Position numbers and translations under genes: made by a program. Source: an archaeon GW2011_AR10 (GTDB lineage Archaea > Iainarchaeota > Iainarchaeia > Iainarchaeales > GW2011-AR10). Taken from it: a stretch of DNA of 64,000 nucleotides. Of the stretch, positions 3,072-53,848 are shown piece after piece. The notes below the pieces were generated by a model, which saw only the letters and a list, made by a program, of their open reading frames with translations, was not told the DNA's origin and searched no databases. The stretch spans positions 815,311 through 879,310 of the forward strand of contig CP010424.1 in assembly GCA_000830275.1 (NCBI GenBank). Direction: 5' to 3'. Numbering within the stretch: position 1 is the first letter of the stretch; every line of letters starts with the position of its first letter.

Positions 3072-3575
3072 ATGAAAAGGGAACAGCACAGAAAACCTGG
3101 CCTTAAAGAGCTGGAAATTGAGCTGGAAGAGCAGAAAAGGATGGCTGCAGATTTTAAGGAAACTGCTCAAAGGGTTCAGGCGGAGTTTGAAAACTATGGC
3201 AAAAGGGCGGAAATGGAAAAACAGTCCTTTCGGGAGTTCGCAAACGCGAAATTGATTGAAGAGTTTTTGCCTTTGCTTGACAGCTTTGACTCGGCAATAG
3301 AAAAAATTGGGAAACACAAAAGCATTTCAATTGGGGAAGCCGTTGAAGGAATTAGTTCACTTCAAAAGCAGCTTCTCAGAATACTTGAAAAAAACGGGTT
3401 AAAGCGGATTGAAGCGGAAGGCAATGAGTTTGACCCAAACCTGCACGAATGCATGCTGAAAGAAAAAATTGAAGGGAAGGAAGACGAAGTAGTTTTAGAG
3501 GAATTGCAGAAAGGATATTTGCTGAAGGAAAAAGTTTTAAGACCAAGCAAGGTGAAAATAAACAAACTGGAGTAG
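3072..3575 (+). CDS. grpE: Nucleotide exchange factor GrpE.
   Basis: 167 aa. Coiled-coil N-terminus and GrpE C-terminal motif ...EFDPNLHECM...GYLLKEKVLRPSKV. Lies upstream of dnaK. Confidence 0.85.
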   Translation: MKREQHRKPGLKELEIELEEQKRMAADFKETAQRVQAEFENYGKRAEMEKQSFREFANAKLIEEFLPLLDSFDSAIEKIGKHKSISIGEAVEGISSLQKQLLRILEKNGLKRIEAEGNEFDPNLHECMLKEKIEGKEDEVVLEELQKGYLLKEKVLRPSKVKINKLE

Positions 3576-3584
3576 TGATGTGTG

Positions 3585-5471
3585 ATGGCAAAAATAATTG
3601 GAATTGATTTGGGAACATCTAATTCAGCTGCAGCAATGCTTGAAAGTGGCAAGCCCAAGATTATTCCAAGCGCGGAAGGTTCTTCCCTGTACGGAAAATC
3701 TTTTCCGAGCTATGTAGCGTTCACAAAAGGCGGCCAAACACTTGTGGGAGAGCCTGCCAGAAGGCAGGCTGTAAGCAACCCGAAAAGAACATTCACTGCT
3801 TTCAAGAGAAAGATGGGAACAGACTACAAATTCATGGTTGAAGGCAGAGAGTACACGCCGCAACAGCTTTCAGCATTTATTTTACAGAAAATCAAGAAGG
3901 ATGCGGAAGAGTTTCTGGGGGATAAAGTTGAAAAGGCAGTCATAACAGTGCCGGCATACTTTGACGACAACCAGAGGCAAGCAACAAAGGATGCTGGAAA
4001 AATTGCCGGGCTGGAAGTAATCAGAATAATAAATGAGCCAACTGCTGCATCACTCGCGTACGGCCTTGACAAGAAGGGAAAAGAACACAGAATAGTAGTG
4101 TTTGACTTAGGCGGTGGAACACTTGATGTAACTGTCATGGAGTTCGGCGACGGAGTATTCGAGGTTAAAAGCACAAGCGGCGACACACAGCTTGGAGGAA
4201 TGGACATGGACCAGGCAGTGGCTGACTTCATCATAAAAGAATTCAGGAAACAGGAGGGAGTAGACTTAAGCAAGGATGCAATGGCAATGCAGAGGGTGCT
4301 TGAAGCCGGGGAAAAAGCAAAAATAGAGTTGAGCACTGTACTGGAAACTGACATTAATCTCCCATACATTACTGCAACTGACCAGGGGCCAAAGCACTTG
4401 GCAATGAGTATTTCAAGGTCAAAGCTTGAGCAGCTCGTTGAACCAATCATCAAGAAATGCGATAAGCCATTGCAGCAGGCGCTTGCCGACGCAAAGATGA
4501 CGCCAAGCGATGTTGACAAGGTGATTATGGTTGGGGGCCCGACAAGAATGCCTATAGTGCAGAAGTTTGTGGAAAACATTGTTGGAACAAAAGTTGAAAG
4601 AGGCGTTGACCCGATGGAGTGCGTTGCAATGGGTGCAGCAATTCAGGCAGGAGTTCTAACAGGGGAAGTGAAAGACATACTGCTGCTTGATGTAACGCCG
4701 TTAACGCTTGGAATTGAAACTCTTGGAGGAGTGATGACAAAGCTCATTTCAAGGAACACAACGATTCCAACCAAAAAATCCCAGGTTTTCAGCACTGCCG
4801 CAGACAACCAGACGGCTGTTGACATTCACGTGCTTCAAGGCGAACGGGAACTGGCCTCAGACAACAAGTCACTTGGCAGGTTCCAGTTGATTGGAATACC
4901 GCCTGCCCCAAGAGGCATTCCGCAAGTAGAGGTAACGTTTGACATTGACGCAAACGGCATACTCAATGTAAAGGCAAAGGACCTTGGAACAGGAAAAGAG
5001 CAGAGCATTAAGATTATTGCAAGCCAGAAGCTCAACGAGCAGGAAATTGAGAAAATGAAAAAGGAGGCAGAACAGTTTGCAGCAGATGACAAGAGAAGAA
5101 GGGATGAAATAGAAACAATAAACCAAGCCGACAGCGTTGTGTACAGCACAAAAAAACTGCTGGAAGAAATGAGGGGAAAAATCGGTTCAGACAAGGAAGA
5201 GCGGATACGGAAAGGCATTTCAGAACTTGAAGAGCTGCTGAAACCGGAAAAAAAAGATACTGCAAAAATCAAGGCAAAGCTGGATGAAGTGAACAGAATC
5301 GTGCAGGAAGCCTCAGTAGAGCTTTACAGAAAAGCCTCACAAAAAACTGAAAACCAGCAGTCAGCGCAGCCGCAGGGTGAGGAGAAGCCAAAGAGCCGCA
5401 AAAGCAGGAAAGGGGAAAAAGTGGTTGATGCTGATTACAGCGTTGAAGAAGACGATAAAGAGGAAGACTAA
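3585..5471 (+). CDS. dnaK: Hsp70 chaperone DnaK.
   Basis: [19 protein letters not shown], and an EEDD tail. The track starts at GTG 3582; the ATG one codon later gives the canonical [11 protein letters not shown]. Confidence 0.95.
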
Positions 5472-48603: not shown

Positions 48604-49764
48604 ATGAAAGGGAAAACAATTGTTTTGGGGATTACGGGAAGTGTTGCAGCAGTTAAAGCGTTTGAGTTGTGCAGGCTGCTCAGGAAAAAAGGCGCTGAAG
48701 TGCAGGTTGTGATGAGCGAGGCAGCACTAAAGCTTGTTGGAGAGCAGGCAATGGAGTGGGCTTCAGGGAACAAGGTTATAACTTCCTTGAGCGGAGCAAC
48801 AGAGCACGTGCAGCTGTTTGGCGCAAAAGGGAAAGCAGATTTGCTGTTAATTGCACCTGCAACAGCAAACACAATTTCAAAAATCGCAATGGGAATAGAT
48901 GACACTCCAATCACTACTTTCGCTACAACAGCAATTGGAAGCAAAAAACCAGTTATAATTGCGCCTGCAATGCACGAGCCAATGTATGAGCACCCTATTG
49001 TGAAAGAAAACCTTGCAAAACTTGAAGCAATGCAAAGGGTGCGCGTAATTAGGCCGTTTATTGAGGATGAGAAAGCAAAACTAAAGGATGTTGATGAAAT
49101 AGTGCTGGAGTGCGAGAAAGCACTGACAAAGCAGACACTGAGTAAAAAAAAAGTTATTATAACCAGCGGGGCAACAATTGAAGAAATTGATCCGATTAGA
49201 GTTTTAACCTCAAAAAGCTCCGGGAAAACAGGAAGAGAAATAGCAAGGGAAGCTTACAGGCGGGGAGCAGATGTTACTCTTCTACATAATGGGGTTGTTG
49301 AATCCGCAATTGCCTCTGTTGAGGCAAAATCAGGAAAAGAAATGCTTGATGCCACAATCCGAGAACTGGATAAGGGGGCTGATTTCCTTGTCTGCGCTGC
49401 GGCAATAAGCGATTTCAGCGTGAAAAAGAGCAATGAAAAAATCAAATCTGAAAAAAGGTTTTCAATAGAAATGGTTCCTGCAGAAAAACTGATTGAAAAG
49501 GCAAGAAAAAGGTTTCCTAAACTGAAAATTGCGGGCTTTAAGGCGGAAACCAATAAAAGCATGAAAGAGCTTGAAAAAATTGCTAAAGAATTTTTGAGGA
49601 AAAACAAATTGCAGCTTGTTGTGGCAAACGATGTTGCAAGGAACGAAATGGGTTCTGATATTAACGAGGTTTTAATTGTTTCAGAAAAAAATAATGCAGT
49701 TGTGAAAGGGGAAAAGGAAAAAATTGCTAAAGAAATTTGCAACCAGATTGAAAAAATAATCTAA
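48604..49764 (+). CDS. coaBC: Bifunctional phosphopantothenoylcysteine decarboxylase / phosphopantothenate-cysteine ligase (CoaBC/Dfp).
   Basis: N-terminal flavoprotein fold (GITGSVAAVKAFEL) plus a C-terminal CoaB domain (AISDF, KIKSEK). Confidence 0.85.
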   Translation: MKGKTIVLGITGSVAAVKAFELCRLLRKKGAEVQVVMSEAALKLVGEQAMEWASGNKVITSLSGATEHVQLFGAKGKADLLLIAPATANTISKIAMGIDDTPITTFATTAIGSKKPVIIAPAMHEPMYEHPIVKENLAKLEAMQRVRVIRPFIEDEKAKLKDVDEIVLECEKALTKQTLSKKKVIITSGATIEEIDPIRVLTSKSSGKTGREIAREAYRRGADVTLLHNGVVESAIASVEAKSGKEMLDATIRELDKGADFLVCAAAISDFSVKKSNEKIKSEKRFSIEMVPAEKLIEKARKRFPKLKIAGFKAETNKSMKELEKIAKEFLRKNKLQLVVANDVARNEMGSDINEVLIVSEKNNAVVKGEKEKIAKEICNQIEKII

Positions 49765-49829
49765 CAAACAAAAAGAATTATTAAGCAGAAATTTACGGGT
49801 CTGTAACGTTTTTGTTGAAACCCCTATTT

Positions 49830-50096
49830 TTACTGGCTTTTTATCCACTTTTCGTATTGTTTGTGGTTTCCTGCAAGGTGAATCGTTTTTATTTTTTCTT
49901 TTTCGTCAATTTTTATGACAATTCTGTACTGACCAGCTTCCGCAACATAGAATTCTATTCCGTGCTTTAAATGCCTCGTTTTTGTTTCTTCCTTTTGTTG
50001 CTGGATTTTCCCCCAAATCATTGTTTGAACTGATTTGTCCATTTTTAAAAAGTGTTTATCCCAACCAGGCTCAAAAATGAGAGAATAAACAGCCAT
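49830..50096 (-). CDS. relE: RelE/ParE-family toxin.
   Basis: 88 aa. ...YRIVIKIDEKEKIKTIHLAGNHKQY matches the RelE C-terminal pattern. Start moved to the ATG (MAVYSLIF). Confidence 0.55.
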   Translation of the reverse strand: MAVYSLIFEPGWDKHFLKMDKSVQTMIWGKIQQQKEETKTRHLKHGIEFYVAEAGQYRIVIKIDEKEKIKTIHLAGNHKQYEKWIKSQ

Positions 50097-50106
50097 TGGT
50101 TCCACT

Positions 50107-50334
50107 TTAAAAACCGTACTTGTGCTTTACCTGCTCTTCACTTAAATATTTCAGGCCTTTAGATTTCATTTCTGCTTCTTCTTTAGCAATTTTTCTTGCA
50201 ACAAGCTCTAGTTCAACACTTTGTGCGCTAACAGAACTCGAAGAAAGCCTTTTCTCCATTTTTTTAACTCTGCTTTCCAAGCTTTCAACCCGCTTTAAAA
50301 CCTTCTGCAAAGAAACACTTTTGCCATTGACCAT
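50107..50334 (-). CDS. Putative cognate antitoxin (75 aa, coiled-coil).
   Basis: Small ORF 10 nt upstream of relE in the canonical antitoxin-first order. Start at the internal ATG. Confidence 0.35.
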   Translation of the reverse strand: MVNGKSVSLQKVLKRVESLESRVKKMEKRLSSSSVSAQSVELELVARKIAKEEAEMKSKGLKYLSEEQVKHKYGF

Positions 50335-50437
50335 TGCGACCACATAAAACTATTCCTCATTTATCATTATAAACATTTCTCAAAGTATTCGCAAAAGAAA
50401 TATGCAACCAGATTGAAAAAATTGTTTAATTGGATTC

Positions 50438-51661
50438 TTACACGCCGTTTTCTAATGCAGCAAGGCCGGGAAGCTTTTTTCCGGCAAGGTATTCGAGGAG
50501 CGCTTTTCCTGCAATGCTTACATGCGTGAAGTCCTGCGGAAGCAAGCCAATCTGGAACAAGGCCCTTTCAGTATCGCCGCCACCAACCAAAGAGAAGCAC
50601 CTGCTGAACGCAATTGTCTCAAGGAGCTTTTTTGTTCCAATCTCAAAGCTTTTCTGCTCGTAAACCCCTAATGGGCCATTGAACACAACAAGCTTTGAAG
50701 CGCGCACTTTCTTTTTGAACAGCTCGGTTGTTCCAACGCCAATGTCAAGGATGGCCTCTTCAACAGGAAGGTCCTTTAGCTTAAGTTCCCTTCTGCCTCC
50801 ATTCGGCTTTGAAGCAACATCAACCGGCAGCACAATCCTTGAACCGTGCTTTTTCAGAAGCGCTGCGGCTTTCGGAAGCAATTTTTTCATTTCTTCTGTT
50901 TCAAACAATGCGTCGCTTTTCCCAAAATTGACGCCTTTTGCCTTCAGGAAAACTTCTCCAAACAATCCGCCAATGCAGACCTCATTGCAGAGCTTTTTTT
51001 CCAGCATTGATTCAACGATTTCAATGCTGTCTGAAACTTTTGCCCCGCCCAAAACAAGGAGTTTTCCGTCTTTTATTTCTTCAAGTTTTTTGAGGCCTTC
51101 AAGCTCTCTTTTCAGCACTGGCCCAACAAAGCTTGGAAGCCTTGCGGCCAACGCAACAACGCTTGCATGGTTTCTGTGGCAAACGCTTAATGCATCCTGA
51201 ACAAAGTAGTCTGCCACTCCTGCCAATGATTTGAATGGCTCAACAGCTACAAAGTCTTTGGCTGTTTTTCCCTTGGCTTCCTCAATATCCAAAAACCTTG
51301 TGTTGTCCAAAACAACAACTGTTCCTTCCCTCATTTCCTTGATTGCCTTTACAAAGTTTTCATCCCATTTAACGAATTTTACATTCCTATCAACAAATTT
51401 TTTAATAAAATCGGCATGCCTTTTAAGCGGGATGAAATCCGCTTCGCCTTTTCTTCCCTGGTGGCTTAAAACAACTACTTTGGCTCCTTCCTCGCAGAGA
51501 GCATAAATTGTTTTAGCGTGCTCTCTCAGCCTTGAGGAAACAACAACGCGGCCTTCAACAATGCTGCTGTTGAGGTCAACCCTTACAACAACAGTTTTTC
51601 CTTTAAGCTCTTGGTCAAAAACGTCTTTGAAGGGCAAAATTTCACCTTGGGATCCTAACAT
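50438..51661 (-). CDS. pgk: Phosphoglycerate kinase.
   Basis: 407 aa. Archaeal PGK N-terminus (...VVVRVDLNSSIVEGR...) and a GGGD-type C-terminus. The ATG follows the track's TTG by one codon. Confidence 0.9.
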   Translation of the reverse strand: MLGSQGEILPFKDVFDQELKGKTVVVRVDLNSSIVEGRVVVSSRLREHAKTIYALCEEGAKVVVLSHQGRKGEADFIPLKRHADFIKKFVDRNVKFVKWDENFVKAIKEMREGTVVVLDNTRFLDIEEAKGKTAKDFVAVEPFKSLAGVADYFVQDALSVCHRNHASVVALAARLPSFVGPVLKRELEGLKKLEEIKDGKLLVLGGAKVSDSIEIVESMLEKKLCNEVCIGGLFGEVFLKAKGVNFGKSDALFETEEMKKLLPKAAALLKKHGSRIVLPVDVASKPNGGRRELKLKDLPVEEAILDIGVGTTELFKKKVRASKLVVFNGPLGVYEQKSFEIGTKKLLETIAFSRCFSLVGGGDTERALFQIGLLPQDFTHVSIAGKALLEYLAGKKLPGLAALENGV

Positions 51662-51663
51662 CA

Positions 51664-51701
51664 ATGGAACAGCAAAAACAATAAATAAGTAACATTTTTG
51701 C
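51664..51701 (-). promoter_or_regulatory. 38-nt promoter module abutting the pgk ATG. Read on the gene strand: CAAAAATGTTACTTATTTATTGTTTTTGCTGTTCCATT.
   Basis: 37 of 38 identical to the module upstream of gap (53811..53848). Contains a TATA-like TTATTTATT. The pgi upstream region shares TTATT...GCTGTTTCCA. Confidence 0.55.
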
Positions 51702-53810: not shown

Positions 53811-53848
53811 AATGGAACAGCAAAAACAATAAATAGGTAACATTTTTG
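53811..53848 (-). promoter_or_regulatory. Second copy of the 38-nt glycolytic promoter module, about 75 nt upstream of the gap ATG.
   Basis: AATGGAACAGCAAAAACAATAAATAGGTAACATTTTTG on the plus strand; 37 of 38 identical to the pgk copy. Confidence 0.55.

What the first reader, a model, noticed from the sequence alone, without database searches (positions are those of the whole stretch)
49729..50422. RelE-family TA cassette inserted at the 3' end of coaBC, flanked by 29-nt direct repeats that both encode the CoaBC C-terminus
coaBC ends ...GCTAAAGAAATTTGCAACCAGATTGAAAAAATAATCTAA (AKEICNQIEKII*). About 640 bp downstream, after the relE-antitoxin pair on the opposite strand, the sequence GCAAAAGAAATATGCAACCAGATTGAAAAAATTGTTTAA reappears in the coaBC orientation and encodes AKEICNQIEKIV*. 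The cassette therefore looks like it inserted into the end of coaBC and brought a replacement 3' end, in the way integrative elements reconstitute their target gene. The downstream copy would be the displaced ancestral end. No integrase is present, so this is either a minimal TA-only mobile cassette or the remnant of a larger element.
Basis: seen in the sequence. Interest (0 to 1): 0.6.

Follow-up and report, generated by a model that had tools for sequence, protein, structure and literature searches.

The report
Toxin-antitoxin cassette duplicating coaBC's end
A 0.63-kb toxin-antitoxin gene pair with no recombinase of its own sits between two housekeeping genes of a tiny DPANN archaeon, bracketed by two copies of the last 13 codons of coaBC, and similar repeat-bracketed cassettes recur in related archaea, which gives a testable clue to how such "selfish" gene pairs move.

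Summary
A 39-nt direct repeat (34/39 identical, 20-nt perfect core) lies at 49726-49764, the true coaBC end, and at 50391-50429, 8 nt from the pgk stop. It brackets a 626-nt low-GC insert that carries only an antitoxin gene and a RelE-fold toxin gene on the minus strand.

- **Organism and empty sites:** The window is Ca. Iainarchaeum. Four related contigs, from three distinct CoaBC proteins 58-65% identical to the window's, have coaBC and pgk abutting (-4 to 19 nt).
- **Population:** All nine assemblies of this species (≥99.6% identical) that span both copies carry the cassette with identical repeats.
- **Repeat differences:** Three are synonymous and one is Ile/Val. This is unlikely if one copy had simply drifted (P≈0.04), so the idea that the cassette brought its own gene end is favoured but not proven.
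- **Toxin family:** It is small and essentially confined to DPANN archaea. Of 84 unique cassettes, 14 have tight flanking repeats, against 10 of 221 shifted controls. One locus has three alternative scpA ends separating two cassettes.
- **What is absent:** No integrase, attC-like hairpin, tRNA or viral link was found.

I read it as a non-autonomous cassette integrated by recombination in a short core. The main rival is insertion with long target duplication, as described for restriction-modification genes.

The parts
48604..49764 (+). coaBC (386 aa), the target gene. It is intact, and its last 13 codons are repeat copy 1.
   Evidence: Pfam Flavoprotein 9.7e-35 and DFP 3.2e-43. Identical to P0121 / AJF60446.1, Ca. 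Iainarchaeum.
49726..49764 (+). Direct repeat copy 1 (attL-like): left arm 49726-49737, 20-nt core 49738-49757, right arm plus stop 49758-49764.
49765..49829 (.). 65-nt AT-rich spacer between the convergent coaBC and toxin stop codons. It contains T-runs on both strands, probably terminators.
   Evidence: Read directly from the sequence. GC 30.8%. No significant fold.
49830..50096 (-). RelE-fold toxin gene (88 aa) with conserved RHLKH...Q.R...G.HKQY.
   Evidence: AF2 pLDDT 86. Foldseek top hits are RelE and YoeB, TM about 0.7. Profile hits to PDB RelE chains. The weak tail of the profile search is PF05016. Family alignments.
50107..50334 (-). Antitoxin gene (75 aa), 10 nt upstream of the toxin start. 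Its C-terminal ...EEQVKHKYGF is conserved with partners of homologous toxins.
   Evidence: No family hit.
50335..50390 (-). Cassette-borne promoter region. A TATA-like TTTATAAT lies on the minus strand at 50373-50366, 31 nt before the ATG.
   Evidence: Read from the sequence. This is an inference and was not tested.
50391..50429 (+). Direct repeat copy 2 (attR-like), an orphan coaBC end. It ends 8 nt from the pgk stop, which is where coaBC ends in relatives with an empty site.
50438..51664 (-). pgk (about 407 aa), the convergent neighbour and right-hand boundary of the insertion site.
   Evidence: Pfam PGK 6.7e-98. Synteny coaBC-pgk-gpi-gapdh in relatives.

Best explanation
A promoter-bearing RelE/antitoxin module of about 0.63 kb, with no recombinase of its own, was inserted between the convergent coaBC and pgk genes of this Ca. 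Iainarchaeum lineage. The insertion happened by recombination inside the last 13 codons of coaBC.

I propose that the incoming DNA was a small circle, or a circularised fragment, that already carried a coaBC 3' end from a related donor. A single crossover in the 20-bp identical core then integrated it Campbell-style. Either host homologous recombination or a recombinase acting in trans could have done this.

The result is two hybrid repeats. The upstream one (host left arm, core, element right arm with stop) keeps coaBC intact. The downstream one (element left arm, core, host right arm with stop) is an orphan at the old position, 8 nt from pgk.

The cassette expresses the antitoxin and a RelE-type ribosome-dependent mRNA endonuclease from its own promoter. 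Loss of the cassette by repeat-mediated deletion would free the stable toxin, which would help explain why it is fixed in all sampled strains.

- **Shown:** the repeat, the insertion relative to empty-site relatives, the RelE fold, the absence of an integrase, and the recurrence of repeat-bounded cassettes in the family.
- **Inferred:** the circular intermediate, the crossover in the core, which arms are host and which are element, the promoter, and the addiction effect.
For: - The repeat has a perfect core and mismatches on both sides, and cannot be chance.
- Empty junctions occur in four related contigs from three CoaBC lineages: -4, 7, 19 and 19 nt between coaBC and pgk. Copy 2 sits 8 nt from pgk.
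- The insert has low GC, in the lowest 2% of windows.
- The differences between copies are three synonymous changes plus Ile/Val, with frame and stop kept. This has P about 0.04 under duplication plus drift, and 0.007 if all changes fell in the orphan copy.
- Repeat homology ends exactly at the stop codon.
- The toxin has a RelE fold.
- The toxin family sits in many different contexts in DPANN MAGs, none with coaBC or pgk nearby.
- 14 of 84 unique cassettes have a tight flanking direct repeat, against 10 of 221 shifted controls (p = 9e-4). Most have a repeat-to-repeat distance of 627-769 nt; the window's is 665 nt.
- In L042, three copies of the scpA 3' end separate a HicAB-like cassette and a RelE-type cassette. 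They share an identical 20-nt core, followed by five of five codons that differ only synonymously. The third tail, ISIQK*, equals the C-terminus of orthologue P0157.
- A 95-nt scpA-end-like element, 86% identical, also lies between other cassettes in L169, where scpA itself is an empty site.
- In L027, copies of at least 228 nt of the 3' part of a 469-aa gene flank the TA pair.
Against: - No same-species or near-species empty site exists. The next relative has 65% CoaBC identity, so host and element arms cannot be assigned directly.
- A 20-nt identical run among 39 nt with five differences arises by chance with P about 0.12.
- The homology is only 39 bp, which is short for homologous recombination, and no recombinase was identified.
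- No circle or attP junction was found.
- The closest cassette relatives (L015/L087, 76% toxin identity) show no flanking repeat.
- L151 has a perfect 83-nt repeat of a promoter region, which fits plain target duplication equally well.
- In L027 the differences are not mainly synonymous: 12 synonymous against 15 non-synonymous codons.
Confidence: 0.5

Rival explanations
1. Insertion with long target duplication. The cassette carried no coaBC homology. A 39-bp stretch of the target, including the coaBC stop, was duplicated during insertion, for example by staggered breaks and fill-in. This is as described for restriction-modification genes. The two initially identical copies then diverged in place.
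For: The case meets the criteria of Furuta et al. 2010 (PMC2853133): duplication longer than 30 bp, insert shorter than 20 kb, no mobility genes. Their H. influenzae examples also overlap gene 3' ends. Repeat lengths in the family vary from 18 to more than 228 nt, and some are perfect, such as the 83 nt in L151. Synonymous changes could have accumulated in the selected upstream copy.
Against: Keeping the frame and stop with at most one amino-acid change has P about 0.04. The repeat boundary coincides exactly with the stop codon. The core-plus-diverged-arms pattern and the all-synonymous run in L042 do not fit in-situ drift. RelE toxins do not cut DNA, whereas double-strand breakage was the proposed driver for restriction-modification genes.
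Confidence: 0.3
2. Remnant of a larger integrated element (virus, plasmid or island) that used a tyrosine integrase and an attP matching the coaBC end. Everything except the TA pair was later deleted.
For: Integrative elements typically rebuild the 3' end of their target gene. TA modules often outlive the elements that brought them (general knowledge).
Against: Only 626 nt remain, tightly bounded (65 nt and 56 nt of non-coding DNA), with both att-like copies intact. Repeat-bounded units of the same small size recur in 12 of the 14 other repeat-bearing loci. The toxin family was not found on IMG/VR viral contigs. No integrase was found among 20 mid-sized ORFs of the window.
Confidence: 0.1
3. 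An old resident TA pair at the coaBC-pgk junction, inherited from the common ancestor shared with the L013 lineage. It was lost in other lineages and rearranged locally here, by inversion plus partial duplication of the coaBC end.
For: L013 (CoaBC 60% identical) has a homologous TA pair (toxin 49% identical) at the same junction. A 16-nt perfect inverted repeat links the coaBC end and the antitoxin gene.
Against: The orientation is opposite and the antitoxin N-terminal halves are unrelated. Four intervening contigs, from three CoaBC lineages, are empty. An unrelated 121-aa ORF occupies the site in L164, which points to a permissive hot spot. The inversion model does not yield a direct repeat.
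Confidence: 0.07

Closest known systems
Integrative elements that insert into the 3' end of a gene and carry a replacement end. Examples are e14 and phage 21 in E. coli icd, tRNA/tmRNA-gene islands, and archaeal SSV/pNOB8-type integrating elements. These are recalled from my own knowledge and were not checked here.
   Same: Direct repeats made of the target gene's 3' end. The gene stays intact. There is an identical core with diverged arms and coding-compatible differences. The displaced end lies at the far side of the insert.
   Different: No integrase and no other element genes. The insert is only 0.63 kb. The cargo is a TA pair alone, and the host is a DPANN archaeon.
'Insertion with long target duplication' of restriction-modification gene complexes (Nobusato et al. 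2000; Furuta, Abe & Kobayashi 2010, PMC2853133; review PMC3874152).
   Same: A selfish addiction-type gene pair inserted without any mobility gene. It is flanked by a direct repeat longer than 30 bp that can overlap a gene's 3' end. Repeat lengths vary between loci, and the insert has lower GC.
   Different: The cargo is a RelE-type TA pair, not restriction-modification genes, so DNA cleavage by the cargo cannot drive insertion. No archaeal case survived their screen. The repeats here are diverged in a coding-compatible way.
Integron gene cassettes, including TA cassettes of chromosomal integrons and archaeal integrons (Ghaly et al. 2022, PMC9668308).
   Same: Small mobile units that depend on a recombinase acting in trans. 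TA pairs are common cargo. Related loci show arrays of cassettes separated by a conserved short element.
   Different: No attC-like hairpin: fold z-scores are -0.3 to +0.7, and the array repeat is G-less. No IntI gene was seen. The repeat is a coding 3' end, and the cassette has its own promoter.
RelBE/YoeB-type type II toxin-antitoxin modules.
   Same: Antitoxin-then-toxin operon of 75 and 88 aa. RelE fold, with conserved basic, His and Tyr residues near the C-terminus.
   Different: Below all Pfam and NCBIfam thresholds. The subfamily is small, with 153 clusters at 50% identity among 1.84 billion proteins, and is essentially limited to DPANN archaea. The antitoxin has no recognisable DNA-binding domain.

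Membership tests
RelE/ParE toxin superfamily | RelE fold: a small alpha/beta barrel-like sheet with N-terminal helices | tested here: met
   AF2 model pLDDT 86, pTM 0.76. Foldseek PDB top hits are 2khe RelE (E = 1.6e-5, TM 0.70), E. coli RelE, P. horikoshii aRelE 1wmi, M. tuberculosis RelE and YoeB.
RelE/ParE toxin superfamily | Match to a curated family model above its threshold | tested here: not met
   Best Pfam hit is HigB_toxin at 16.7 bits against a cut-off of 27. NCBIfam gave none. PADLOC PD-Lambda-2_A scored E = 1.3e-4.
RelE/ParE toxin superfamily | Transitive sequence link to recognised members | tested here: met
   The family profile hits PDB RelE chains over their full length, E = 0.04-0.3. 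Eight of ten weak hits of the 1.84-billion-protein search pass the PF05016 ParE_toxin threshold.
RelE/ParE toxin superfamily | Catalytic residues and ribosome-dependent mRNA cleavage | not testable with these tools
   Invariant R41, H45, Q56, R58, H78, K79, Q80 and Y81. R58 aligns with E. coli RelE R61. Activity is an inference.
Type II toxin-antitoxin module | Two small co-oriented adjacent genes with the antitoxin first, and the pairing conserved across genomes | tested here: met
   There is a 10-nt gap between the genes. An upstream 50-130-aa partner was found for 94 toxin homologues. The antitoxin C-terminal motif is conserved.
Type II toxin-antitoxin module | Antitoxin with a recognisable DNA-binding domain (RHH, HTH, AbrB or Phd) | tested here: inconclusive
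   No family hit for the window antitoxin or six homologues.
Site-specific integrative element that rebuilds its target gene | Insert flanked by direct repeats that contain the target gene's 3' end, with the gene left intact | tested here: met
Site-specific integrative element that rebuilds its target gene | Empty site in related genomes | tested here: met
   L011/L012, L014 and L165 have coaBC and pgk adjacent. These are only at 58-65% CoaBC identity. All same-species assemblies are occupied.
Site-specific integrative element that rebuilds its target gene | Integrase encoded by the element | tested here: not met
   The 626-nt insert holds only the TA pair. No recombinase was found among 20 mid-sized ORFs of the window.
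Site-specific integrative element that rebuilds its target gene | Excised circle (attP) and attB junctions detectable | not testable with these tools
   No raw reads were available. The 29-nt core pattern is absent from viral contigs and from other fetched loci.
Insertion with long target duplication (criteria of Furuta et al. 2010) | Duplication longer than 30 bp, insert shorter than 20 kb, no mobility genes | tested here: met
   39-bp repeat and 626-nt insert.
Insertion with long target duplication (criteria of Furuta et al. 2010) | Both repeat copies align to a single copy at the empty site of a close relative | tested here: inconclusive
   Relatives are too distant for DNA alignment of the coaBC end.
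Integron gene cassette | attC site: an imperfect inverted repeat that folds as single-stranded DNA | tested here: not met
   DNA folds of both junctions on both strands give z = -0.31, 0.66, -0.14 and 0.68.
Integron gene cassette | Adjacent IntI integrase and attI site | tested here: not met
   The flanks are coaBC and pgk. No integrase was found in the ORFs scanned.

The most novel reading that the evidence does not exclude
DPANN archaea harbour a previously undescribed class of integrase-less TA mini-cassettes of about 0.65 kb. These cassettes carry a copy of their target as a homing arm, either the 3' end of a housekeeping gene such as coaBC or scpA, or a conserved inter-cassette element. 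They integrate by recombination in a short core and can stack into arrays, giving an integron-like system without IntI or attC. The TA pair itself protects against repeat-mediated loss.
Probability: 0.25. Interest if true: 0.8.

Novelty: new variant of a known kind. Interest (0 to 1): 0.6.

Why it matters
Chromosomal toxin-antitoxin pairs are known to spread horizontally, but how a bare two-gene module moves without a transposase or integrase is poorly understood.

- **A concrete junction to work with.** This locus is clean: an empty site in relatives, a 39-bp repeat with a 20-bp core, and no recombinase. It predicts a specific circle sequence and a specific empty-site sequence that can be searched for in raw reads.
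- **A recurring feature.** The same toxin family shows repeat-bounded units and cassette arrays in other DPANN genomes. One array is at the 3' end of scpA, with three alternative gene ends. The locus may therefore be one instance of a general way in which addiction modules colonise gene ends in very small archaeal genomes.
- **A wider reach for a known pattern.** It extends the "insertion with long target duplication" pattern from restriction-modification genes in bacteria to TA modules in archaea. That argues against DNA cleavage by the cargo as the cause.

Tried and rejected
- **Chance repeat:** rejected, with 0 of 100 shuffles matching.
- **Known RNA or tRNA target:** none found by ARAGORN or Rfam in the whole window.
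- **attC-like or other hairpin at the junctions:** none.
- **Integrase in the window:** 20 mid-sized ORFs are housekeeping genes (Kae1, DnaJ, S3Ae, SecDF, Cdc6, arginase, proteasome, Tyw1 and others) or unknown.
- **Population heterogeneity:** all nine spanning assemblies carry the cassette and identical repeats; only three SNPs fall in the TA genes.
- **Same-species empty site:** none among the 10 members of the 90% CoaBC cluster.
- **C-terminal residue of homologues (V versus I) to decide which end is ancestral:** uninformative.
- **coaBC-like arm next to related cassettes elsewhere:** none in about 150 loci.
- **Viral carriage:** no toxin homologue and no core match in IMG/VR.
- **Cassette boundaries from DNA homology with the closest cassette (L015):** homology covers only the coding parts, 50321-49826.
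- **pgk-end duplicate in L013, as a mirror-image model:** not found.
- **L151 as a gene split by the insertion:** rejected. The minus-strand ORFs look spurious, and the 83-nt repeat is the upstream region of a 78-aa gene.
- **Short 681-nt contig (L167) as a possible circle:** uninformative.
Full report
**Observation**

The window reads coaBC (48604-49764, +), then a 65-nt spacer, then two minus-strand genes, then a 56-nt AT-rich stretch, then a second copy of the coaBC end, and 8 nt later the stop codon of the convergent pgk (50438-51664, -).

The repeat finder reports a 39-nt direct repeat at 49726-49764 and 50391-50429, 34/39 identical, with start-to-start spacing of 665 nt. A 32-nt version allowing 3 mismatches occurs only at these two places in the 64 kb and never in 100 shuffles.

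The structure of the repeat is a 12-nt left arm with 2 differences, a 20-nt perfect core (49738-49757 / 50403-50422), and a 7-nt right arm with 3 differences that ends in TAA. Both copies translate to AKEICNQIEKI(I/V)*. Copy 2 has no start codon and an in-frame stop 6 codons upstream, so it is an orphan gene end. Homology stops sharply on both sides, and on the right it stops exactly at the stop codon.

**Organism and population**

CoaBC is identical to P0121 (AJF60446.1 and others, named Ca. Iainarchaeum, on a contig of 1.24 Mb). Every contig that carries this CoaBC or one of its close variants has the same two small genes. The nine assemblies that reach past the cassette (L001-L007, L162, L163; at least 99.6% identical to the window) have both repeat copies letter for letter. 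Only three SNPs fall in the TA genes: one synonymous, L74F towards the family consensus, and G4S. The arrangement is therefore real and fixed in the sampled population. No heterogeneity was seen at assembly level.

**It is an insertion**

The nearest other lineages have CoaBC only 58-65% identical, but they keep the synteny coaBC-pgk-gpi-gapdh.

| Locus | CoaBC protein | Between the coaBC stop and the pgk stop |
|---|---|---|
| L011 / L012 | P0002 | 19 nt |
| L014 | P0009 | 7 nt |
| L165 | P0007 | overlap of 4 nt |
| Window, from copy 2 | – | 8 nt |

Copy 2 therefore sits where a coaBC end is expected. The 626 nt between the copies have 34.8% GC against 43.3% for the window, which is in the lowest 2% of 626-nt windows.

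The junction is also occupied in two other lineages. L013 (P0003) has a homologous TA pair on the opposite strand: toxin 49% identical, antitoxins alike only in the C-terminal 40 residues, and no repeat. L164 (P0004) has an unrelated 121-aa ORF. This convergent junction is thus a recurrent landing or survival site.

**The genes**

The toxin gene (49830-50096, 88 aa) fails every curated threshold. HigB_toxin scores 16.7 against a cut-off of 27 bits, NCBIfam gives nothing, and the PADLOC hit is weak. The following evidence places it in the RelE/ParE superfamily despite that.
- A 22-sequence alignment gives an AlphaFold model with pLDDT 86.
- The best Foldseek matches of that model in the PDB are RelE from T. 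thermophilus, E. coli, P. horikoshii and M. tuberculosis, and YoeB, with TM about 0.7 and probability 1.0.
- The family profile aligns end to end with PDB RelE chains, at marginal E-values.
- In a scan of 1.84 billion representatives it finds only 153 clusters. Eight of ten sampled from the weak tail pass the PF05016 threshold.
- Invariant R41, H45, Q56, R58, H78, K79, Q80 and Y81 fit a RelE-type active site, which is an inference.

The upstream gene (50107-50334, 75 aa) has no family hit. It is the conserved partner of these toxins and shares the C-terminal ...EEQVKxKYGF motif. A TATA-like TTTATAAT lies 31 nt before its ATG, read by eye. "RelE-family TA cassette" is therefore justified.

**Distribution of the toxin family**

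The family is small: 23 clusters at 90% identity. It sits in MAGs labelled Iainarchaeota/Diapherotrites, Micrarchaeota, Altiarchaeota and Forterrea. None of the 147 loci fetched through the toxin has coaBC or pgk next to it, so the module has moved between contexts. It was not found on IMG/VR viral contigs.

**Did the cassette bring its own gene end?**

Three lines of evidence bear on this.

1. *The differences between copies.* They are three synonymous third-position changes plus ATC/GTT (Ile/Val). In a simulation of in-situ duplication followed by drift, with selection acting only on the upstream copy, keeping the frame, the stop and at most one amino-acid change has P about 0.04. It is 0.007 if all changes hit the orphan copy. 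A 20-nt clean run has P about 0.12. This is suggestive, not decisive.

2. *The right-hand boundary.* It falls exactly at the stop codon. That is expected if the two copies are orthologous coding ends from diverged genomes, and it is a coincidence under target duplication.

3. *Other loci of the family.*
   - I compared 450 nt on each side of 84 unique cassettes. Fourteen have a flanking direct repeat scoring at least 15, against 10 of 221 windows shifted within the same loci (Fisher p = 9e-4). Several of the high-scoring controls are repeats around neighbouring small cassettes.
   - The repeats hug the cassette. In 12 of the 14 they lie from 11 nt inside the called antitoxin start to 119 nt before it, and from -3 to 183 nt after the toxin stop, with a repeat-to-repeat distance of 627-769 nt.
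   - In L027, at least 228 nt of the 3' part of a 469-aa gene is repeated on both sides.
   - In L102 the repeat covers the end of a MazF gene.
   - L042 is the clearest case; its details follow.

*The L042 locus.* The scpA gene (PF02616) ends with core TTTTGGCAGGAAATATTCAT. The same core, with a different coding tail, recurs after a HicAB-like cassette and again after the RelE-type TA.
- Copy 1 against copy 2 shows six identical codons (FWQEIF). Five of the next five codons then differ only synonymously (ISLAE, including TCT/AGC).
- Copy 3 ends ISIQK*, exactly the C-terminus of orthologue P0157. The tails of copies 1 and 2 resemble that of P0154.
- In L169 scpA ends ISVNK* and is followed directly by another gene, so it is an empty site. 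Even so, a 95-nt element 86% identical to L042 copy 2 lies between a VapBC cassette and a HicAB cassette 1.8 kb away.
- In L168 a single small ORF is bracketed by the scpA core and a 13-nt partial core.

These loci show that gene-end copies travel with cassettes in at least one lineage.

**Counter-evidence**

L151 has a perfect 83-nt repeat of an upstream region. In L027 the differences are not mainly synonymous. The closest cassette relatives show no repeat. All of this also fits "insertion with long target duplication", described for restriction-modification genes in bacteria. The criteria there were a duplication longer than 30 bp, no mobility genes, and repeats that may overlap gene 3' ends; no archaeal case was found (PMC2853133; PMC3874152).

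**What it is not**

- There is no tRNA or Rfam family in the window.
- The junctions do not fold better than shuffles, so they are not attC-like.
- Twenty mid-sized ORFs of the window are housekeeping genes or unknown, with no recombinase.
- The 29-nt centre of the repeat is absent from viral contigs, and no coaBC-like arm accompanies related cassettes elsewhere.

**Verdict**

| Reading | Probability |
|---|---|
| The insertion itself | about 0.9 |
| Integrase-less cassette integrated by a crossover in the 20-bp core, bringing its own coaBC end | about 0.5 |
| Target duplication in place | about 0.3 |
| Remnant of a larger element | about 0.1 |
| Old resident TA pair, rearranged | below 0.1 |

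In kind it is a new variant of known things: gene-end-rebuilding integration, and insertion with long target duplication. The cargo (a TA pair only), the lack of a recombinase, the host (DPANN archaea) and the link to cassette arrays are new. What is missing is a close empty-site relative or read-level evidence of excision. Both are straightforward to look for.

Noticed in passing
window 51663-51700 and 53811-53848: A 38-nt direct repeat, 97% identical (AATGGAACAGCAAAAACAATAAATA[A/G]GTAACATTTTTG), overlaps the start codons of pgk and gapdh (both minus strand) and extends into the DNA just upstream of each. It is probably a shared promoter or regulatory element of two glycolytic genes.
   Followed up: no
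L011 4204-4235 and L012 2406-2437: In the closest relative with an empty coaBC-pgk junction, the 19-nt spacer plus the pgk end form a perfect 16-nt tandem duplication (tttTTACTGCTTTAAT twice). It includes the pgk stop codon and last codons. This looks like a footprint at the same junction.
   Followed up: no
L026 156, 877, 1560, 2286, 2980 (same as L106); also L068, L125, L155: A conserved G-less element of about 48 nt (CAACACCCATTCTATTTCC..CTCCCTTCAACACCAACAAATATATTC) recurs every ~700 nt in L026/L106 (630-1,250 nt in the other loci) and, in L026/L106, separates small TA cassettes (RelE-type and a second TA-like pair). It occurs in several DPANN MAGs, giving cassette arrays without visible attC or integrase.
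   Followed up: partly
L113 2605-2667 / 3361-3423; L119 1372-1409 / 2067-2104; L101 2636-2676 / 3285-3325: A second type of inter-cassette repeat (TTTTAAACATTAAACGCTTGTAACCGCCATAAGGGATACAA) flanks RelE-type TA pairs in different MAGs. In L113 it is followed by another TA-like pair.
   Followed up: no
L042 1864-1923, 2605-2670, 3312-3347; L168 4206 and about 4637; L169 2960 and 4730-4824: The scpA 3' end core TTTTGGCAGGAAA(TATTCAT) is a synteny breakpoint and cassette insertion site in three related genomes. L042 has three alternative scpA ends, and a mobile 95-nt scpA-end-like element lies between cassettes in L169.
   Followed up: partly
L013 4290-4828 and L164 3743-4108: The same coaBC-pgk junction is occupied in two other lineages. 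One has a homologous TA pair in the opposite orientation without repeats, and the other has an unrelated 121-aa ORF. The junction is a hot spot.
   Followed up: partly
window 49719-49734 (also 49575-49590) and 50179-50194: A 16-nt perfect inverted repeat, AAAAATTGCTAAAGAA, links coaBC (twice, encoding KIAKE) and the antitoxin gene (also KIAKE, on the other strand). It is probably a coincidence of codon usage, but it abuts repeat copy 1.
   Followed up: no
protein P0128 (SRR3989344): A CoaBC variant whose first ~90-100 residues (up to about residue 78 of P0128) are strongly diverged from the window's protein and whose remainder is identical. It is either a recombinant with a co-occurring relative or a chimeric assembly.
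   Followed up: no
L015 1597-4394: The closest cassette relative (76% toxin identity) lies in a TA-rich islet. The islet holds a RelE-like gene, a membrane protein, the homologous TA pair, a zinc-ribbon ORF and a MazEF-like pair.
   Followed up: no
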